Assembly: GCA_964629245.1 (NCBI GenBank)
Contig: CAZVPZ010000001.1
Span: 1 to 59,809, forward strand
Source: an uncultured archaeon
GTDB taxonomy: Archaea; Nanohalarchaeota; Nanosalinia; Nanosalinales; Nanosalinaceae
DNA: 59,809 nucleotides
Direction of reading: 5' to 3'
The translations under genes and the position numbers were made by a program. The notes under the pieces are model-generated. The model searched no databases, was not told the DNA's origin, and saw only the letters and a list, made by a program, of their open reading frames with translations. The number at the start of each line of letters is the position of its first letter. The stretch's first letter is position 1. Positions 13,777 to 48,950 of this stretch are shown here, in pieces.

Positions 13777-13874
13777 GAAACGCCTGCGCCCGGATTGTGA
13801 ACGGAACTGATGTCAGTTCCATCAACAGGCCGGGTTCAAAGAACCCGGCATTGCGCAGTATTAGCGTAACAATA

Positions 13875-14031
13875 CGCCGGCGCCCGGATTTGAACCGGGG
13901 AGGGCCGTCACAGCCCAGCAGATATCTCGTTGTTCCAGGGCGTTTCATCATCGTGGCGTTCAGCCACTCGTGCACATCTGCTTGGCAACAGCTCGAATCT
14001 GCCGCGTTCAGCCAGACTCCGCCACGCCGGC
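13875..14031 (-). tRNA. tRNA-Ser(CGA) with a 68-nt intron at 37/38
   Basis: Hand fold: acceptor GCCGGCG/CGCCGGC, anticodon stem GCAGA/UCUGC, loop UUCGAG[intron]A. Long variable arm GGGCU..GGCCC, T arm CCCGG-UUCAAAU-CCGGG, discriminator G. Confidence 0.85.
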
Positions 14032-21000: not shown

Positions 21001-21116
21001 GTCTGGCAGCGTCCGCACGCTCCCGCCGGAAGGCAGTACTAATGCGATCGCTGAGGGACTTTACTTCCGTGTTCGGAATGGGTACGGGTGTTGCCCCCTC
21101 GCTGTGGCCGCCAGTA
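21001..21116 (-). rRNA. 5S rRNA (ends within about 5 nt)
   Basis: The minus strand reads CUGGCGGCCACAGCGAGGGGGCAACACCCGUACCCAUUCCGAACACGGAAGUAAAGUCCC...GCUGCCAG. The universally conserved CCGAACACGGAAG block is present. Helix I closes as CUGGCGGC/GCUGCCAG. Confidence 0.9.
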
Positions 21117-23596: not shown

Positions 23597-23660
23597 TCCC
23601 GGCTCCAGGATTTGAACCCCGACGAAGATCGCAGATTTTCTGGAGGATATCAAATCGGGG
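23597..23660 (-). repeat. tRNA-Tyr trailer module ending in a second exact copy of the tRNA's last 22 nt
   Basis: 23597-23618 is identical to 23676-23697 (TCCCGGCTCCAGGATTTGAACC on the plus strand). It is preceded by a hairpin and a GATTTGA block homologous to the 25701-25769 module. Confidence 0.8.
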
Positions 23661-23749: not shown

Positions 23750-23800
23750 AAAGACTTTCAGGCTTGACCGGTTAGCTCTTTGAGAAGCATCGGCTTCGTT

Positions 23801-23816
23801 CTGAGCTAGGCCGGGA
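23801..23816 (-). repeat. Copy of tRNA-Tyr positions -1 to +15 in the 5' leader
   Basis: CTGAGCTAGGCCGGGA versus CTGAGCTAAGCCGGGA (23735-23750), 15 of 16 identical. Confidence 0.75.
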
Positions 23817-25700: not shown

Positions 25701-25769
25701 AAATCCTATGGCAGGGCCGGGATTTGAACCCCGCGAAAATCATAGATTTTCTGAGGTTATCAAATCCTA
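25701..25769 (-). repeat. tRNA-Pro(CGG) trailer module ending in a second copy of the tRNA 3' end plus trailer (31 nt)
   Basis: 25701-25731 is identical to 25762-25792 (AAATCCTATGGCAGGGCCGGGATTTGAACCC). The internal 48 nt match the tRNA-Tyr module at 43 of 50 aligned positions (hand alignment). Confidence 0.8.
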
Positions 25770-25842
25770 TGGCAGGGCCGGGATTTGAACCCGGGTCCAC
25801 ACGTCCCGAACGTGCGATGATAGTCCCCTACACTACCCCGCC
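25770..25842 (-). tRNA. tRNA-Pro(CGG)
   Basis: GGCGGGG..GCACG-UUCGGGA-CGUGU..CCGGG-UUCAAAU-CCCGG-CCCUGCC-A. Confidence 0.9.
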
Positions 25843-25895
25843 AAAATCGTTCTACGATTTTGTTCGGGCCGAGAAAAACCTCTGGAGGTTTTCGG

Positions 25896-25905
25896 CCCCG
25901 CCAAA
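25896..25905 (-). repeat. Copy of tRNA-Pro(CGG) 5' end plus 3 leader nt (UUUGGCGGGG)
   Basis: CCCCGCCAAA also occurs at 25836-25845. The copy is followed on the minus strand by a long hairpin GGGCCGAAAACCUC-CA-GAGGUUUUUCUCGGCCC. Confidence 0.6.
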
Positions 25906-28804: not shown

Positions 28805-28926
28805 AAATTAGATGAGATATGGCAGAAATAAATATTTCCACATCGTCGGCAGTTTCGGAATTTCTATAAAATCAGGGTATATGCAATTGGCAGTTTGAAA
28901 ACTACGTCGAAGTTTTCTTGACCTAC

Positions 28927-28946
28927 AAAATTCTGGAAAGAATTTT
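28927..28946 (-). terminator. Hairpin plus U-tract after the tRNA-Pro(UGG) trailer module
   Basis: The minus strand reads AAAAUUCU-UUCC-AGAAUUUU directly after the second CCCUGCCA. Confidence 0.4.
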
Positions 28947-29022
28947 GGCAGGGCCCGGATTTGAACTTGAAGACAGGTCTTCGGCTGCTTCAAATCGCGG
29001 GCATATGCATCGCTGAAAGCGA
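28946..29022 (-). repeat. tRNA-Pro(UGG) trailer module ending in a second copy of the tRNA's last 21 nt
   Basis: 28946-28966 is identical to 29023-29043 (TGGCAGGGCCCGGATTTGAAC). The internal hairpin is GAAGAC/GUCUUC, with a GATTTGA block. Confidence 0.8.
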
Positions 29023-29095: not shown

Positions 29096-29247
29096 AAGTG
29101 TTACGCTACTTGAACGCAACAAGCCATTCAACGGAATGGCTTCCAGATAGGGGTTCTGGAACGTATATTCTTGTCCGGTAGAAGGCTTTTAAACTAACTC
29201 GGTGGTAGCCTGAGGGATTTTAAAATCAGGATGCGCTTTTTCTTTTA

Positions 29248-41975: not shown

Positions 41976-42138
41976 GGTAAGAAGCCTAAGAACGAACACC
42001 TTTTTAAACAGGCCATAGGATGTTCGCCGAGAAACGAACGAAGAAGCCCTTTAGAGCAGTTCTGGAGAGTCAAGATAAAGCCTCTTTCTGGGATAGGAAG
42101 GCGGGTTCGTATCCTACGAGCGAACCCTCATTGATAAG

Positions 42139-42342
42139 AGCCCCGAGTGGGATTTGAACCCACGACCTGCCCCTCTCTTACGCCAGAGCGGTTCGACTTG
42201 GAGGTCGCCTGCACTCCATTCTCGCTCCGCTCGAATCCGTAATCATGTTCTGAAAGCCATGCTTTGCATGGGTTGACATGATCGAACTTTGTGAAGTTCG
42301 CGATACAAGGGGGCCGCTCTAGCCAAGCTGAGCCATCGAGGC
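42139..42342 (-). tRNA. tRNA-Thr(UGU) with an intron of about 129 nt at 37/38
   Basis: GCCUCGA-UG-GCUC..GAGC-G-GCCCC-CUUGUA[intron]A-GGGGC-AGGUC-GUGGG-UUCAAAU-CCCAC-UCGGGGC-U. Confidence 0.85.
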
Positions 42343-48149: not shown

Positions 48150-48299
48150 TGGACCGGCCCGGATTTGAACCGGGGATCTCCACGTATCCAAGTTCGGGGG
48201 ACTGATTTCCGGAAGCCATGCATACCATGGCTTGACGCGTGCTAACTCCGCGTCAGGAGTTATCAGCGTGGCGCTCTAACCTGGCTAAGCTACCGGTCC
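48150..48299 (-). tRNA. tRNA-Ile(GAU) with a 75-nt intron at 37/38
   Basis: GGACCGG-UA-GCUU..GAGC-G-CCACG-CUGAUA[intron]A-CGUGG-AGAUC-CCCGG-UUCAAAU-CCGGG-CCGGUCC-A. Confidence 0.85.
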
Positions 48300-48891: not shown

Positions 48892-48950
48892 TCGGAGCTA
48901 ATTGCTGGAAGCAGGAACTGGATTTTCTGGGGATTAAACTGGTAGCAGTT

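What the first reader, a model, noticed from the sequence alone, without database searches (positions are those of the whole stretch)
25701..25905. Same nested architecture at tRNA-Pro(CGG), with a trailer module homologous to the tRNA-Tyr one and compensatory leader-trailer pairing
**Repeated ends.** tRNA-Pro(CGG) lies at 25770-25842. It is followed 61 nt later by an exact 31-nt copy of its 3' end plus 8 trailer nt (25701-25731 = 25762-25792). It is preceded by a copy of UUUGGCGGGG (25896-25905).

**Homology to the tRNA-Tyr module.** The sequence between the two 3' copies matches the tRNA-Tyr trailer module at 43 of 50 hand-aligned positions. The plus strand reads GGATTTGAACCCCGCGAAAATCATAGATTTTCTGAGGTTATCAAATCC. 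The two host tRNAs are unrelated outside the T loop, so the module looks like its own conserved entity.

**Shared architecture.** Both modules keep three parts. These are a GAUUUGA block (complement of the T loop), a 7-bp hairpin, and a 6-bp stretch next to the copied T arm that is complementary to the leader.

**Compensatory change.** The complementary 6-mers differ between loci (CGAAAA/UUUUCG here, ACGAAG/CUUCGU at Tyr). In the Tyr copy the differing base weakens the local hairpin to an A-C mismatch, while the leader pairing stays perfect.
Basis: partly seen in the sequence, partly recalled or inferred. Interest (0 to 1): 0.8.

Follow-up and report, generated by a model that had tools for sequence, protein, structure and literature searches.

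The report
Pseudo-exon hairpin modules flanking tRNA genes
An intact proline tRNA gene of a salt-loving nano-archaeon sits between partial copies of its own two ends and small hairpin modules related to tRNA introns; the same layout recurs at many tRNA genes across this lineage and may show how archaeal tRNA genes gain introns or break into pieces.

Summary
An exact 31-nt copy of the tRNA-Pro(CGG) 3' end lies 61 nt downstream. A 10-nt copy of its 5' end lies upstream. The spacer is 43/49 identical to the tRNA-Tyr trailer.

The window comes from a Nanohaloarchaeon (DPANN). In 45 tRNA genes from about 30 nanohaloarchaeal loci, 18 carry a downstream 3'-end copy and 12 an upstream 5'-end copy.

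The general layout is 5' copy, GAA..UUC hairpin, antisense stretch, tRNA, antisense-to-T-loop, GAA..UUC hairpin, 3' copy.

The trailer hairpin shows covariation. It occurs only beside or inside tRNA genes. It shares sequence with genuine tRNA introns.

The inner tRNA is the functional gene. The outer copies are often degenerate, so I call them pseudo-exons.

The "compensatory" leader-trailer pairing is not locus-specific. It follows from a CGAAR/YUUCG motif shared by all modules.

At Pro(CGG), leader and trailer can form a canonical bulge-helix-bulge. Its 3' cut falls exactly at the start of the copy. This motif is not found at other loci.

My best reading is an intron-related palindromic cassette family that spreads via conserved tRNA blocks and duplicates tRNA ends as it does so. 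Function is unproven. I found no description of it in the held library.

The parts
25770..25842 (-). Intact tRNA-Pro(CGG), the functional inner gene.
   Evidence: ARAGORN. Rfam tRNA model, 49.9 bits.
25701..25731 (-). Pseudo-3'-exon. It is an exact copy of tRNA positions about 51-73 (25709-25731) plus 8 nt of native 3' flank, TAGGATTT (25701-25708). The native T-rich flank TATTC follows it.
   Evidence: 31/31 identity with 25762-25792. The same flank TAGGATTTTATTC follows the last copy in relative L004.
25732..25769 (-). Type I trailer module. It contains the anti-T-loop GGAUUUGA (25760-25767), ACCUC (25753-25757) pairing with GGGGU (25728-25732), and hairpin h2 GAAAAUC-UAU-GAUUUUC (25735-25751) ending in UUCG.
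   Evidence: Sequence. The MFE fold gives one long interrupted hairpin. Covariance model R1 scores it 49.3 bits. Identity to the Tyr module is 43/49.
25896..25905 (-). Pseudo-5'-exon UUUGGCGGGG: 3 leader nt plus the 5' acceptor strand.
   Evidence: At tRNA-Tyr loci the outer copy sits where a tRNA 5' end normally lies relative to the TATA-like box; that comparison was made at Tyr loci, not at this locus.
25869..25895 (-). Leader hairpin h1, CCGAAAACCUC-CA-GAGGUUUUUCUCGG.
   Evidence: Sequence and fold.
25843..25861 (-). Second leader hairpin, AAAAUCGU-AGA-ACGAUUUU, directly upstream of the tRNA. It is the same GAAAAUC-type palindrome as trailer h2.
   Evidence: Sequence and fold.
25851..25870 (-). 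5' half of the candidate leader-trailer bulge-helix-bulge: GGCC-CGAA-[CA|A]-AAUCGUAGA. The predicted cut lies between 25861 and 25860.
   Evidence: My own BHB scan, validated on the Thr and L010 Ser canonical introns. 2/300 shuffles reach this strength.
25727..25746 (-). 3' half of the candidate BHB: UCUAUGAUU-UUCG-[CG|G]-GGUU. The predicted cut lies between 25732 and 25731, which is exactly the first base of the 31-nt copy.
23597..23656 (-). Homologous type I trailer module and pseudo-3'-exon of tRNA-Tyr: e* GAUUUGA (23650-23656), h2 (23624-23640), and copy GGTTCAAATCCTGGAGCCGGGA (23597-23618).
   Evidence: R1 scores it 49.4 bits.
23773..23815 (-). tRNA-Tyr leader module: pseudo-5'-exon CCCGGCCUAGCUCAG (23801-23815), hairpin GAAGC/GCUUC (23784-23797), and antisense GAGCUA (23773-23778).
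   Evidence: Alignment of 17 leader modules.
28946..28996 (-). tRNA-Pro(TGG) trailer module and pseudo-3'-exon: e* GAUUUGAA (28989-28996), hairpin GAAGA/UCUUC, and a 21-nt copy (28946-28966).
   Evidence: R1 scores it 34.5 bits.
13781..13801 (-). Degenerate pseudo-3'-exon of tRNA-Ser(CGA), TTCACAATCCGGGCGCAGGCG, lying behind a different hairpin cassette.

Best explanation
The interval is the flank system of an ordinary, intact tRNA-Pro(CGG) gene in a Nanohaloarchaeon.

**Anatomy.** The gene is followed by a roughly 38-nt palindromic trailer module: an anti-T-loop stretch, a short helix, and a GAAAAUC hairpin ending in UUCG. After that comes a pseudo-3'-exon, a second copy of the tRNA from the T loop to the discriminator. 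Upstream lies a pseudo-5'-exon followed by hairpins of the same kind.

**Family.** The module belongs to a lineage-wide family of short, intron-related hairpin cassettes. These occupy leaders, trailers and canonical introns of nanohaloarchaeal tRNA genes.

**Proposed spread (inferred).** The cassettes move between tRNA loci, and between strains, by recombination or template switching on sequence blocks shared by most tRNAs. These blocks are the T loop GGTTCAAATCC on the 3' side and the D-stem block TAGCTCAG on the 5' side. The cassette ends in a T-loop-like sequence, so re-entry at the resident T loop re-copies the tRNA 3' end and makes the direct repeat. At Pro(CGG) the left junction lies in a GGATTT microhomology between the native flank and the start of the module. 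That explains why this repeat runs 8 nt past the tRNA.

**Consequences (inferred).** The outer copies are by-products that decay or get remodelled. In the transcript the anti-T-loop pairs with the copied T loop, so the module folds on itself and leaves the tRNA free.

**Shown:** anatomy, family membership, intron homology, covariation, restriction to tRNA contexts, degeneracy of outer copies.

**Inferred:** the recombinational mechanism and the absence of an essential RNA function.
For: - **Organism.** It is a Nanohaloarchaeon, by UDG homologs.
- **Census.** Of 45 tRNAs, 18 have a 3' copy and 12 a 5' copy. Chance expectation is about 1e-4 to 4e-3 per locus.
- **Family.** The covariance model hits only tRNA contexts and nothing in about 25 control loci. 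Covariation is above shuffles, 0/500. No Rfam family matches.
- **Intron relationship.**
  - The type I hairpin AGAAAATCTCCGATTTTCG is identical (19/19) in the L019 Tyr trailer and in the canonical intron of tRNA-Cys(GCA) in L006.
  - The 5' end of the Ser introns equals the start of the L026 Ser trailer (25/25).
  - That same intron 5' end occurs reverse-complemented in the L019 trailer and the L013 leader.
- **Movement between loci.** The Pro(CGG) trailer is type I, otherwise typical of Tyr, in the window. It is type II plus a second layer in the closest relative L004, and it is absent in L008 and L020.
- **Allele discordance.** The window and L004 carry two different Ser trailer cassettes. 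Each of these is shared with more distant genomes.
- **Layering.** Outer, older copies are shorter or more degenerate. Examples are CCTGCCA in L004, ACTGCCA in the window, and the second copies in L007 and L010.
- **Outer 5' copies are mutated.** Examples are CACGGCT, CACGCCC, CCCAACT and CCCGGCC. The inner gene is always intact.
- **Native context.** At Tyr loci the promoter-to-copy spacing matches the promoter-to-tRNA spacing of loci without the module. The native flank and T run follow the last 3' copy.
- **No strand asymmetry.** The hairpins are Watson-Crick palindromes with no sense-strand G-U bias.
- **No mobile-element genes.** There is no integrase or transposase nearby and no viral-contig hit.
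Against: - The tRNA-Tyr leader module keeps its order and primary-sequence motifs (GCTCAG-NN-CGAAGC..GCTTCT..GAGCTAAG) across genomes whose flanking proteins are only 66-75% identical. That argues for purifying selection, meaning some function, and against neutral debris.
- In most loci the 3' copy ends exactly at the discriminator and the 5' copy starts exactly at +1. A purely DNA-level switching model does not predict this. It fits an RNA-defined boundary or selection on acceptor pairing better.
- The 12-13 nt acceptor part of the 3' copy stays identical to the tRNA even in heavily remodelled Ser trailers. This segment is short for gene conversion to maintain.
- The Pro(CGG) BHB cut site coincides with the edge of the copy.
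- No enzyme or direct trace of template switching can be shown from sequence alone.
Confidence: 0.45

Rival explanations
1. **Functional nested precursor.** Leader and trailer pair, through outer acceptor strands and the CGAA/UUCG helix, to form a processing stem with a bulge-helix-bulge. The splicing endonuclease excises a tRNA-containing piece, which may be circularised by RtcB. RNase P and tRNase Z then finish it. This would work like rRNA processing stems and permuted tRNAs.
For: - Pro(CGG) has a canonical, correctly handed hBHBh' (A4, C4, B9). Its 3' cut falls exactly at the first base of the copy, and 2/300 shuffles reach it.
- The MFE fold closes the whole precursor with GGCGGGGCC:GGCCCUGCC.
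- The leader C and the trailer G flanking the GAA..UUC hairpins are conserved but unpaired locally. They would pair with each other.
- The modules are intron-related.
Against: - There is no BHB at Tyr and only a weak one at Pro(TGG), reached by 22/300 shuffles. No recurrent enclosing BHB appears across 45 loci.
- Only 5/45 loci have both outer copies.
- Cognate leader-trailer duplexes are no better than non-cognate ones.
- Local hairpins compete with the long-range pairing and would form first during transcription.
- The Pro(CGG) trailer is a recent, lineage-restricted acquisition.
Confidence: 0.2
2. **Selected cis-acting RNA elements without splicing.** The antisense stretches (a*, e*) and their decoy copies form leader and trailer hairpins. 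These would tune pre-tRNA folding, end processing or stability, or yield small RNAs with anti-T-loop activity.
For: - The Tyr leader is deeply conserved.
- The hairpins show covariation.
- e* tracks T-loop variants: GGATTCGA with TTCGAATCC in L019, and GATTTGC with TGCAAATCC in the L006 tRNA-Cys.
- The copy boundaries coincide with the mature tRNA ends.
Against: - The elements are dispensable. Many orthologous tRNAs lack them.
- Turnover is high and cassette alleles are discordant with relatedness.
- Folding shows no sense-strand bias.
- Quasi-palindrome correction could produce the tracking of e* without any selection.
Confidence: 0.2
3. **Integration scars.** The direct repeats are attL/attR remnants of integrated viruses or plasmids that target tRNA genes. 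The module would be the leftover arm of the element.
For: - Partial 3' tRNA duplications are the classic signature of archaeal integrative elements.
- A fragment of tRNA-Thr next to a recombinase-bearing insert is documented in Caldiarchaeum (PMC3293823).
Against: - Only 30-60 nt lie between the copies.
- No integrase or mobile-element genes occur within +/-5 kb.
- 5'-end copies with mirror-image modules also exist.
- The same module is found inside a canonical intron.
- There are no hits in viral contigs.
- The architecture is inherited across many genomes.
Confidence: 0.05
4. **Three-exon tRNA.** The outer copies are the true exons. The stretches containing the inner copies are unusual introns at positions of about 15/16 and 50/51.
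For: - The sequence is formally ambiguous, because either copy gives the same mature tRNA.
- At Tyr loci the outer 5' copy sits at the normal distance from the promoter, and the last 3' copy sits next to the native downstream flank.
Against: - Outer copies are often mutated so that the acceptor stem would break, while the inner copies are always perfect.
- No BHB exists at equal offsets in any locus.
Confidence: 0.03

Closest known systems
Mobile or non-canonical BHB introns of archaeal tRNA genes, and the intron/leader homology of split tRNAs (Thermoproteales, Caldivirga, Nanoarchaeum; reviewed in PMC4033280, PMC4390854, PMC4090602; these three reviews appeared in search results but were not opened; their content is cited from my own knowledge)
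   Same: - Short structured sequences shared between different tRNA genes and between intron and flank positions.
- Antisense stretches that pair with adjacent exon sequence.
- A DPANN host with many long introns.
   Different: - Here the tRNA is intact and the intron-like cassettes lie outside it. They are bounded by duplicated exon ends (pseudo-exons).
- No spliceable BHB occurs at most loci.
- The cassettes are near-perfect palindromes.
Partial tRNA gene duplications at integration sites of archaeal mobile elements (attL/attR), e.g. the tRNA-Thr fragment in Caldiarchaeum subterraneum (PMC3293823)
   Same: A direct repeat of a tRNA end next to an intact tRNA gene.
   Different: - The spacer is tens of nucleotides, not kilobases.
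- There is no recombinase.
- Both ends are affected, with mirror-image modules.
- The feature is conserved across genomes.
Leader-trailer processing stems with BHB motifs (archaeal rRNA operons, circularly permuted tRNAs; PMC3978253, PMC7714728; these two papers appeared in search results but were not opened; their content is cited from my own knowledge)
   Same: At Pro(CGG), leader and trailer can form a canonical BHB enclosing the mature RNA.
   Different: - The motif is present at one locus only.
- The pairing is short.
- Strong local hairpins compete with it.
Repetitive extragenic palindromes and MITE-like small palindromic repeats (own knowledge)
   Same: Short palindromic units in sequence families. 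They are copied between loci, are gained and lost often, and occur in either orientation.
   Different: - They are restricted to tRNA leaders, trailers and introns.
- One arm is tRNA-derived and tracks the local tRNA.
- No associated transposase was identified.

Membership tests
Archaeal BHB (splicing-endonuclease) intron or processing stem | Two 3-nt bulges on opposite strands, separated by a 4-bp helix and flanked by helices, with the correct handedness. | tested here: inconclusive
   Met at Pro(CGG): A4/C4/B9, reached by 2/300 shuffles. Not met at Tyr. Weak at Pro(TGG). No recurrent motif in 45 loci. The scan recovered the Thr and L010 Ser canonical introns as controls.
Archaeal BHB (splicing-endonuclease) intron or processing stem | Excision and ligation yield a functional RNA (mature tRNA from the exons). 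| tested here: not met
   No BHB occurs at equal offsets that would join the outer copies to the inner body. The ligated outer 'exons' of Pro(CGG) lack D and anticodon arms, as read directly from the sequence.
Archaeal BHB (splicing-endonuclease) intron or processing stem | Cleavage by EndA, and ligation or circularisation, in vivo or in vitro. | not testable with these tools
   Needs RNA-seq, circRNA-seq or an enzyme assay.
Integrated mobile element with tRNA att duplication | An element-sized insert carrying an integrase or recombinase between the repeats. | tested here: not met
   The spacer is 30 nt. Pfam finds no integrase or transposase among ten major ORFs in the roughly 21.9-30.8 kb stretch; the full ORF list for 20.5-30.5 kb is. 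Relative L001 has none either.
Integrated mobile element with tRNA att duplication | The module or att sequence is present in viral or plasmid genomes. | tested here: not met
   0 matches in IMG/VR for the type I pattern. Only one pattern was tried.
Split tRNA gene (Nanoarchaeum/Caldivirga type) | tRNA pieces are encoded separately, each with flanking sequence complementary to its partner, and there is no intact gene. | tested here: not met
   An intact tRNA is present at all window loci. Orphan Pro(TGG) 3' pieces without a tRNA body exist in L007 and L027, but their partner could not be searched for.
Known Rfam RNA family | A match to a curated covariance model. | tested here: not met
   Only the tRNA model matches. 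All other hits are far below gathering scores.
Box C/D guide sRNA in tRNA intron or flank | C (RUGAUGA) and D (CUGA) boxes, with the antisense element ending 5 nt upstream of D/D'. | tested here: not met
   By inspection, the Pro(CGG)/Tyr module has no C or D box. The sequence after e* is not conserved as a box. C/D-like boxes do occur in the Ser introns, which are a separate feature.
Structured RNA/DNA hairpin family (new, defined here) | Recurrent copies, compensatory changes in stems, and context specificity. | tested here: met
   There are 14 strong copies, all downstream of tRNAs, plus an intron copy. Six pairs have double changes, and the covariation score is 0.177 against 0.074 in shuffles. 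There are 0 hits in the control loci.

The most novel reading that the evidence does not exclude
Nanohaloarchaeal tRNA genes may be caught in the act of gene disruption. Intron-derived palindromic cassettes invade the D-loop and T-loop regions and duplicate the exon ends. Depending on which copy later decays, the outcome would be one of four states:
- an intact nested gene, as here
- a non-canonical intron
- an orphan, separately transcribed tRNA piece, which would be a nascent split tRNA; the Pro(TGG) 3' pieces in L007 and L027 lie about 50 nt downstream of a TATA-like box
- loss of the cassette

Where leader and trailer cassettes match, as at Pro(CGG), the splicing endonuclease would excise and circularise the tRNA precursor. 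This would give a mechanistic route for the origin of archaeal tRNA introns and split tRNAs.
Probability: 0.25. Interest if true: 0.85.

Novelty: new variant of a known kind. Interest (0 to 1): 0.62.

Why it matters
How archaeal tRNA introns move, and how split or permuted tRNA genes arise, has been debated for two decades with few intermediates to study.

Here intact tRNA genes are flanked by duplicated exon ends and by cassettes that share sequence with genuine introns. These cassettes vary between related genomes. That offers natural intermediates and testable predictions, such as the cut sites at 25861 and 25732, indel polymorphism in populations, and orphan exon pieces.

There is also a practical point for annotation. 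Partial tRNA copies in DPANN genomes should not automatically be read as integration scars. In addition, ARAGORN in default mode missed three intron-containing tRNAs in this window and, run with introns allowed, called a tRNA-Cys in a related genome (L006) as tRNA-Ser.

Tried and rejected
1. **Three-exon reading** (outer copies as true exons). Rejected because outer copies are degenerate and no BHB exists at equal offsets.
2. **Integration scar.** Rejected because there is no integrase, the spacer is tiny, 5' mirror modules exist, and one copy lies in an intron.
3. **Box C/D or K-turn guide.** No boxes and no K-turn geometry were found by inspection.
4. **Decayed tandem tRNA copies.** Hairpin loops of 3-10 nt and the missing arms do not fit.
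5. **Transcription-factor palindrome.** The variable half-site spacing argues against it.
6. **Locus-specific leader-trailer covariation.** Rejected by the permutation test.
7. **Sense-strand RNA signature via G-U asymmetry.** None was found.
8. **Enrichment of GAA..UUC hairpins elsewhere in the window.** Counts are at shuffle level except next to tRNAs.
9. **Exact-protein lookup of the window's glyoxalase.** Not on record.
10. **Glyoxalase homologs as a route to more Pro(CGG) loci.** Synteny is not conserved, so no new Pro(CGG) loci were obtained.
11. **Metagenome scan with the type I pattern.** Only one further copy turned up, L084. The pattern was probably too strict.
12. **Literature searches.** Nothing was found on nanohaloarchaeal tRNA flanks.
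Full report
**1. Observation**

All tRNA genes in the window are on the minus strand. ARAGORN and Rfam place tRNA-Pro(CGG) at 25770-25842.

- The 31-mer at 25701-25731 is identical to 25762-25792 and extends no further.
- On the RNA strand this copy runs from G51 of the T stem to the discriminator (23 nt), plus 8 nt of 3' flank (UAGGAUUU).
- UUUGGCGGGG (25896-25905) repeats 3 leader nt plus the 5' acceptor strand.
- The sequence between the two 3' copies, together with the copied T loop, aligns with the tRNA-Tyr trailer at 43/49 positions.
- The anti-T-loop block, the 7-bp hairpin and the UUUUCG/CGAAAA complementarity are all present.

tRNA-Pro(TGG) has the same trailer layout, with a copy at 28946-28966. 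The intron-containing tRNA-Ser(CGA) has a degenerate 3' copy at 13781-13801.

**2. Organism and comparative material**

The neighbouring uracil-DNA glycosylase has its best homologs in Candidatus Nanohaloarchaea/Nanohaloarchaeota MAGs and genomes. A genome-collection scan returned 25 nanohaloarchaeal loci, L004-L028. Further loci came from exact-protein look-ups and one metagenome pattern hit. The closest genome is L001, which is the same contig as L004. Its flanking proteins are 79-89% identical to those of the window.

**3. General anatomy**

Across tRNA-Tyr, Ser(CGA) and Pro loci the layout is:

a - h1 - a* - s1 - [tRNA] - s2 - e* - h2 - e

- a is a copy of tRNA positions 1 to about 15.
- a* is antisense to part of a (GAGCUAAG against CUUAGCUC).
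- e is a copy from position about 51-54 to the discriminator.
- e* is antisense to the T loop (GGAUUUGA).
- s1 and s2 are the short spacers between the modules and the tRNA.
- h1 and h2 are small hairpins whose stems always begin GAA and end UUC. In leaders they are preceded by C, and in trailers they are followed by G.

Census of 45 tRNAs:

| Feature | Loci |
|---|---|
| Copy of the last 13 nt (at most 1 mismatch) within 250 nt downstream | 18 |
| Copy of the first 10 nt (at most 1 mismatch) within 200 nt upstream | 12 |
| Both | 5 |

Tandem layers occur. Examples are L007 and L010 Ser, L008 and L027 Tyr leaders, L004 Pro(CGG), and a short ACUGCCA copy behind a hairpin after the window's Pro(TGG).

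At Tyr loci the TATA-like box lies 40-53 nt upstream of the outer 5' copy where one exists. It lies 41-50 nt upstream of the tRNA itself where no copy exists (counted by eye). The native downstream flank follows the last 3' copy.

**4. The module is a family**

A covariance model of 14 trailer modules found only those copies plus two others:
- a hairpin-less e*/T-loop pair in the L004 Ser trailer
- a hit spanning the intron and the real T loop of a tRNA in L006

It found nothing in about 25 bacterial or other archaeal control loci.

On the model-guided alignment:
- 82.9% of cells pair.
- Six pairs show double changes, reached by 2/500 shuffles.
- The covariation score is 0.177 against 0.074 in shuffles, reached by 0/500.
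- Slid controls score at most 0.067.
- Caveats: the alignment is fitted to the model and the sequences are related.

There are two sequence subfamilies:

| Type | Consensus | Where found |
|---|---|---|
| I | GATTTGATA(A/T)CCTC(C)AGAAAATC-nnn-GATTTTCG | window Tyr, window Pro(CGG), L019, L084, L027 (partial), and an intron in L006 |
| II | GGATTTGATG..AGAAGCTC-loop-GAGCTTCGGGTTCAAATCC | L004 Pro(CGG), L023 and L025 Tyr, L002/L007/L010/L013 Ser |

e* follows T-loop variants: GGATTCGA with TTCGAATCC in L019. No Rfam family matches.

**5. Relationship to introns**

The L006 gene that ARAGORN called Ser(GCT) is a tRNA-Cys(GCA) with a 52-nt intron at the canonical position. That intron contains the type I hairpin, identical at 19/19 positions to the L019 Tyr trailer. 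It also contains a GAUUUGC stretch complementary to this tRNA's unusual T loop, UGCAAAUCC.

The 5' ends of the Ser(CGA) introns (AAACTTCnGAAAGTTTsATCATCAG) recur in three places:
- at the very start of the L026 Ser trailer (25/25)
- reverse-complemented just before the 3' copy in the L019 Ser trailer
- reverse-complemented just before the tRNA in the L013 Ser leader

The flanking cassettes and genuine introns therefore draw on the same sequence pool.

**6. Which copy is functional?**

The inner tRNA is always intact. Outer 5' copies carry changes that would break the acceptor stem:
- CACGGCU in L004
- CACGCCC in L017
- CCCAACU in L023
- CCCGGCC in the window's Tyr

Several outer 3' copies are degenerate. 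No bulge-helix-bulge exists at equal offsets in the two copies in any locus, so the outer copies cannot be spliced onto the inner body. The copied T arm keeps only 2-3 nt of its 5' strand. The outer copies are therefore pseudo-exons.

**7. Leader-trailer pairing and BHB**

I wrote a BHB scanner. It recovered the canonical Thr intron and the L010 Ser intron as controls.

At Pro(CGG) it finds a correctly handed motif:
- Leader half: GGCC-CGAA-[CA|A]-AAUCGUAGA.
- Trailer half: UCUAUGAUU-UUCG-[CG|G]-GGUU.
- The cuts fall after 25861 and after 25732. The second cut is exactly the edge of the 31-nt copy.
- Only 2/300 mononucleotide shuffles of the flanks reach this strength.

Elsewhere the picture differs. 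Pro(TGG) is weak, reached by 22/300 shuffles. Tyr has nothing. No recurrent enclosing motif appears in the other loci.

The 9-bp inner helix at Pro(CGG) exists because leader and trailer each carry a GAAAAUC-type palindrome. Cognate leader-trailer duplexes (-7.0 kcal/mol) are not better than non-cognate ones (-7.9). In the permutation test, 4010/5000 permutations were at least as good.

It reflects the shared CGAAR/YUUCG motif.

**8. Dynamics**

- The Pro(CGG) trailer is type I in the window.
- It is type II plus an outer hairpin+CCUGCCA layer in L004.
- It is absent in L008 and L020.
- The Tyr trailer module is present in the window, L008, L019, L020, L023, L025 and L084.
- It is partial in L007, L013, L018 and L027, and absent elsewhere, including L004.
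- L004 still keeps the s2 spacer ACTTCGTTCTC.
- The window and L004 carry two different Ser trailer cassettes. Each is shared with more distant genomes, which suggests exchange between lineages.
- Folding energies and G-U counts show no preference for the tRNA-sense strand. The modules behave as Watson-Crick palindromes.
- No integrase or transposase lies nearby, and the type I pattern has no viral-contig match.

**9. Explanation**

I favour an intron-related palindromic cassette family that spreads via tRNA blocks shared by most tRNAs (confidence 0.45). Because each trailer cassette ends in a T-loop-like sequence, re-entry at the resident T loop during recombination or template switching re-copies the tRNA 3' end.

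At Pro(CGG) the left junction lies in a GGATTT microhomology between the native flank (TAGGATTTTATTC, as in L004) and the start of the module (GGATTTGATAACC). This accounts for the repeat running 8 nt beyond the tRNA.

This mechanism is inferred, not shown. Several facts argue that some selected RNA-level role exists:
- the deep conservation of the Tyr leader
- the copy boundaries at the mature tRNA ends
- the persistence of acceptor-strand identity in remodelled trailers
- the coincidence of the Pro(CGG) BHB cut with the copy edge

I rate the endonuclease-processed nested precursor at 0.2 and a non-splicing cis-regulatory role at 0.2. Integration scars (0.05) and a three-exon gene (0.03) are largely excluded.

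**10. Comparison and novelty**

The closest known systems are:
- mobile or non-canonical archaeal tRNA introns, and the intron/leader homology of split tRNAs
- att duplications at tRNA genes
- BHB processing stems

This feature differs from all three. It combines an intact gene, duplicated exon ends on both sides, and intron-like palindromic cassettes outside the gene. Five literature searches in the held library found no description for Nanohaloarchaea, and one of the retrieved papers was also searched for these terms.

I classify it as a new variant of a known kind, namely disrupted or rearranged archaeal tRNA genes. My interest score is 0.62.

Noticed in passing
L007:1577-1596 and L027:956-975: Orphan 3' pieces of tRNA-Pro(TGG) (TTCAAATCCGGGTCCTGCCA) lie at the position syntenic with the window's Pro(TGG), with the same conserved downstream flank. 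There is no tRNA body upstream; only about 50-100 nt containing a TATA-like box separate them from a divergent gene. They are either relics after loss of the inner gene or separately transcribed tRNA pieces.
   Followed up: partly
window 13875-14031, 42138-42342, 48150-48299 (minus strand): Three tRNAs carry long canonical-position introns: Ser(CGA) 68 nt, Thr(TGT) 129 nt and Ile(GAT) 75 nt. ARAGORN in default mode missed all three. The Ser intron carries C/D-box-like motifs (CGATGATGA ... CTGA).
   Followed up: partly
L006:15936-16058 (minus strand): ARAGORN calls this gene tRNA-Ser(GCT). It is a tRNA-Cys(GCA) with a 52-nt intron at 37/38. The intron contains the type I hairpin and a stretch complementary to the tRNA's own unusual T loop (TGCAAATCC).
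   Followed up: yes
window 29096-29140 (Pro(TGG) leader) versus 13850-13874 (Ser trailer); also L007, L008, L014, L019: The Ser(CGA) trailer element (T)TGGTTACGCT..CGCAA is the reverse complement of the conserved Pro(TGG) leader element TTGCG..AGCGTAAC. The same short element therefore flanks different tRNAs in mirror orientation.
   Followed up: partly
window 28880-28945 (minus strand): Downstream of the Pro(TGG) 3' copy lies a conserved stretch, also present in L027. It has a GAAAACU..AGUUUUC hairpin (28897-28917) followed by ACTGCCA-ATTGCATAT. This looks like an older, shorter layer of 3'-end copy plus the ancestral flank.
   Followed up: partly
window 48920-48932 (minus strand): The tRNA-Lys trailer contains CCCCAGAAAATCC, which resembles the 5' half of the type I module (CCTCCAGAAAATCT). 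There is no 3' copy, so it may be a decayed remnant.
   Followed up: no
window 21001-21115 (minus strand): A stand-alone 5S rRNA gene with no 16S or 23S rRNA gene in the window (the Rfam scan of the whole window found none).
   Followed up: no
L020:5430-5524: The leader of the intron-containing tRNA-Pro(CGG) in L020 has a 14-nt 5' copy (GGCGGGGTGGTTTA), two GAA..TTC hairpins, GATCATCTGA, and an antisense stretch AAACCACCC. Its first hairpin (GAACTTCCGAAAGTTCGATCAT) resembles the start of the window's Thr intron.
   Followed up: partly
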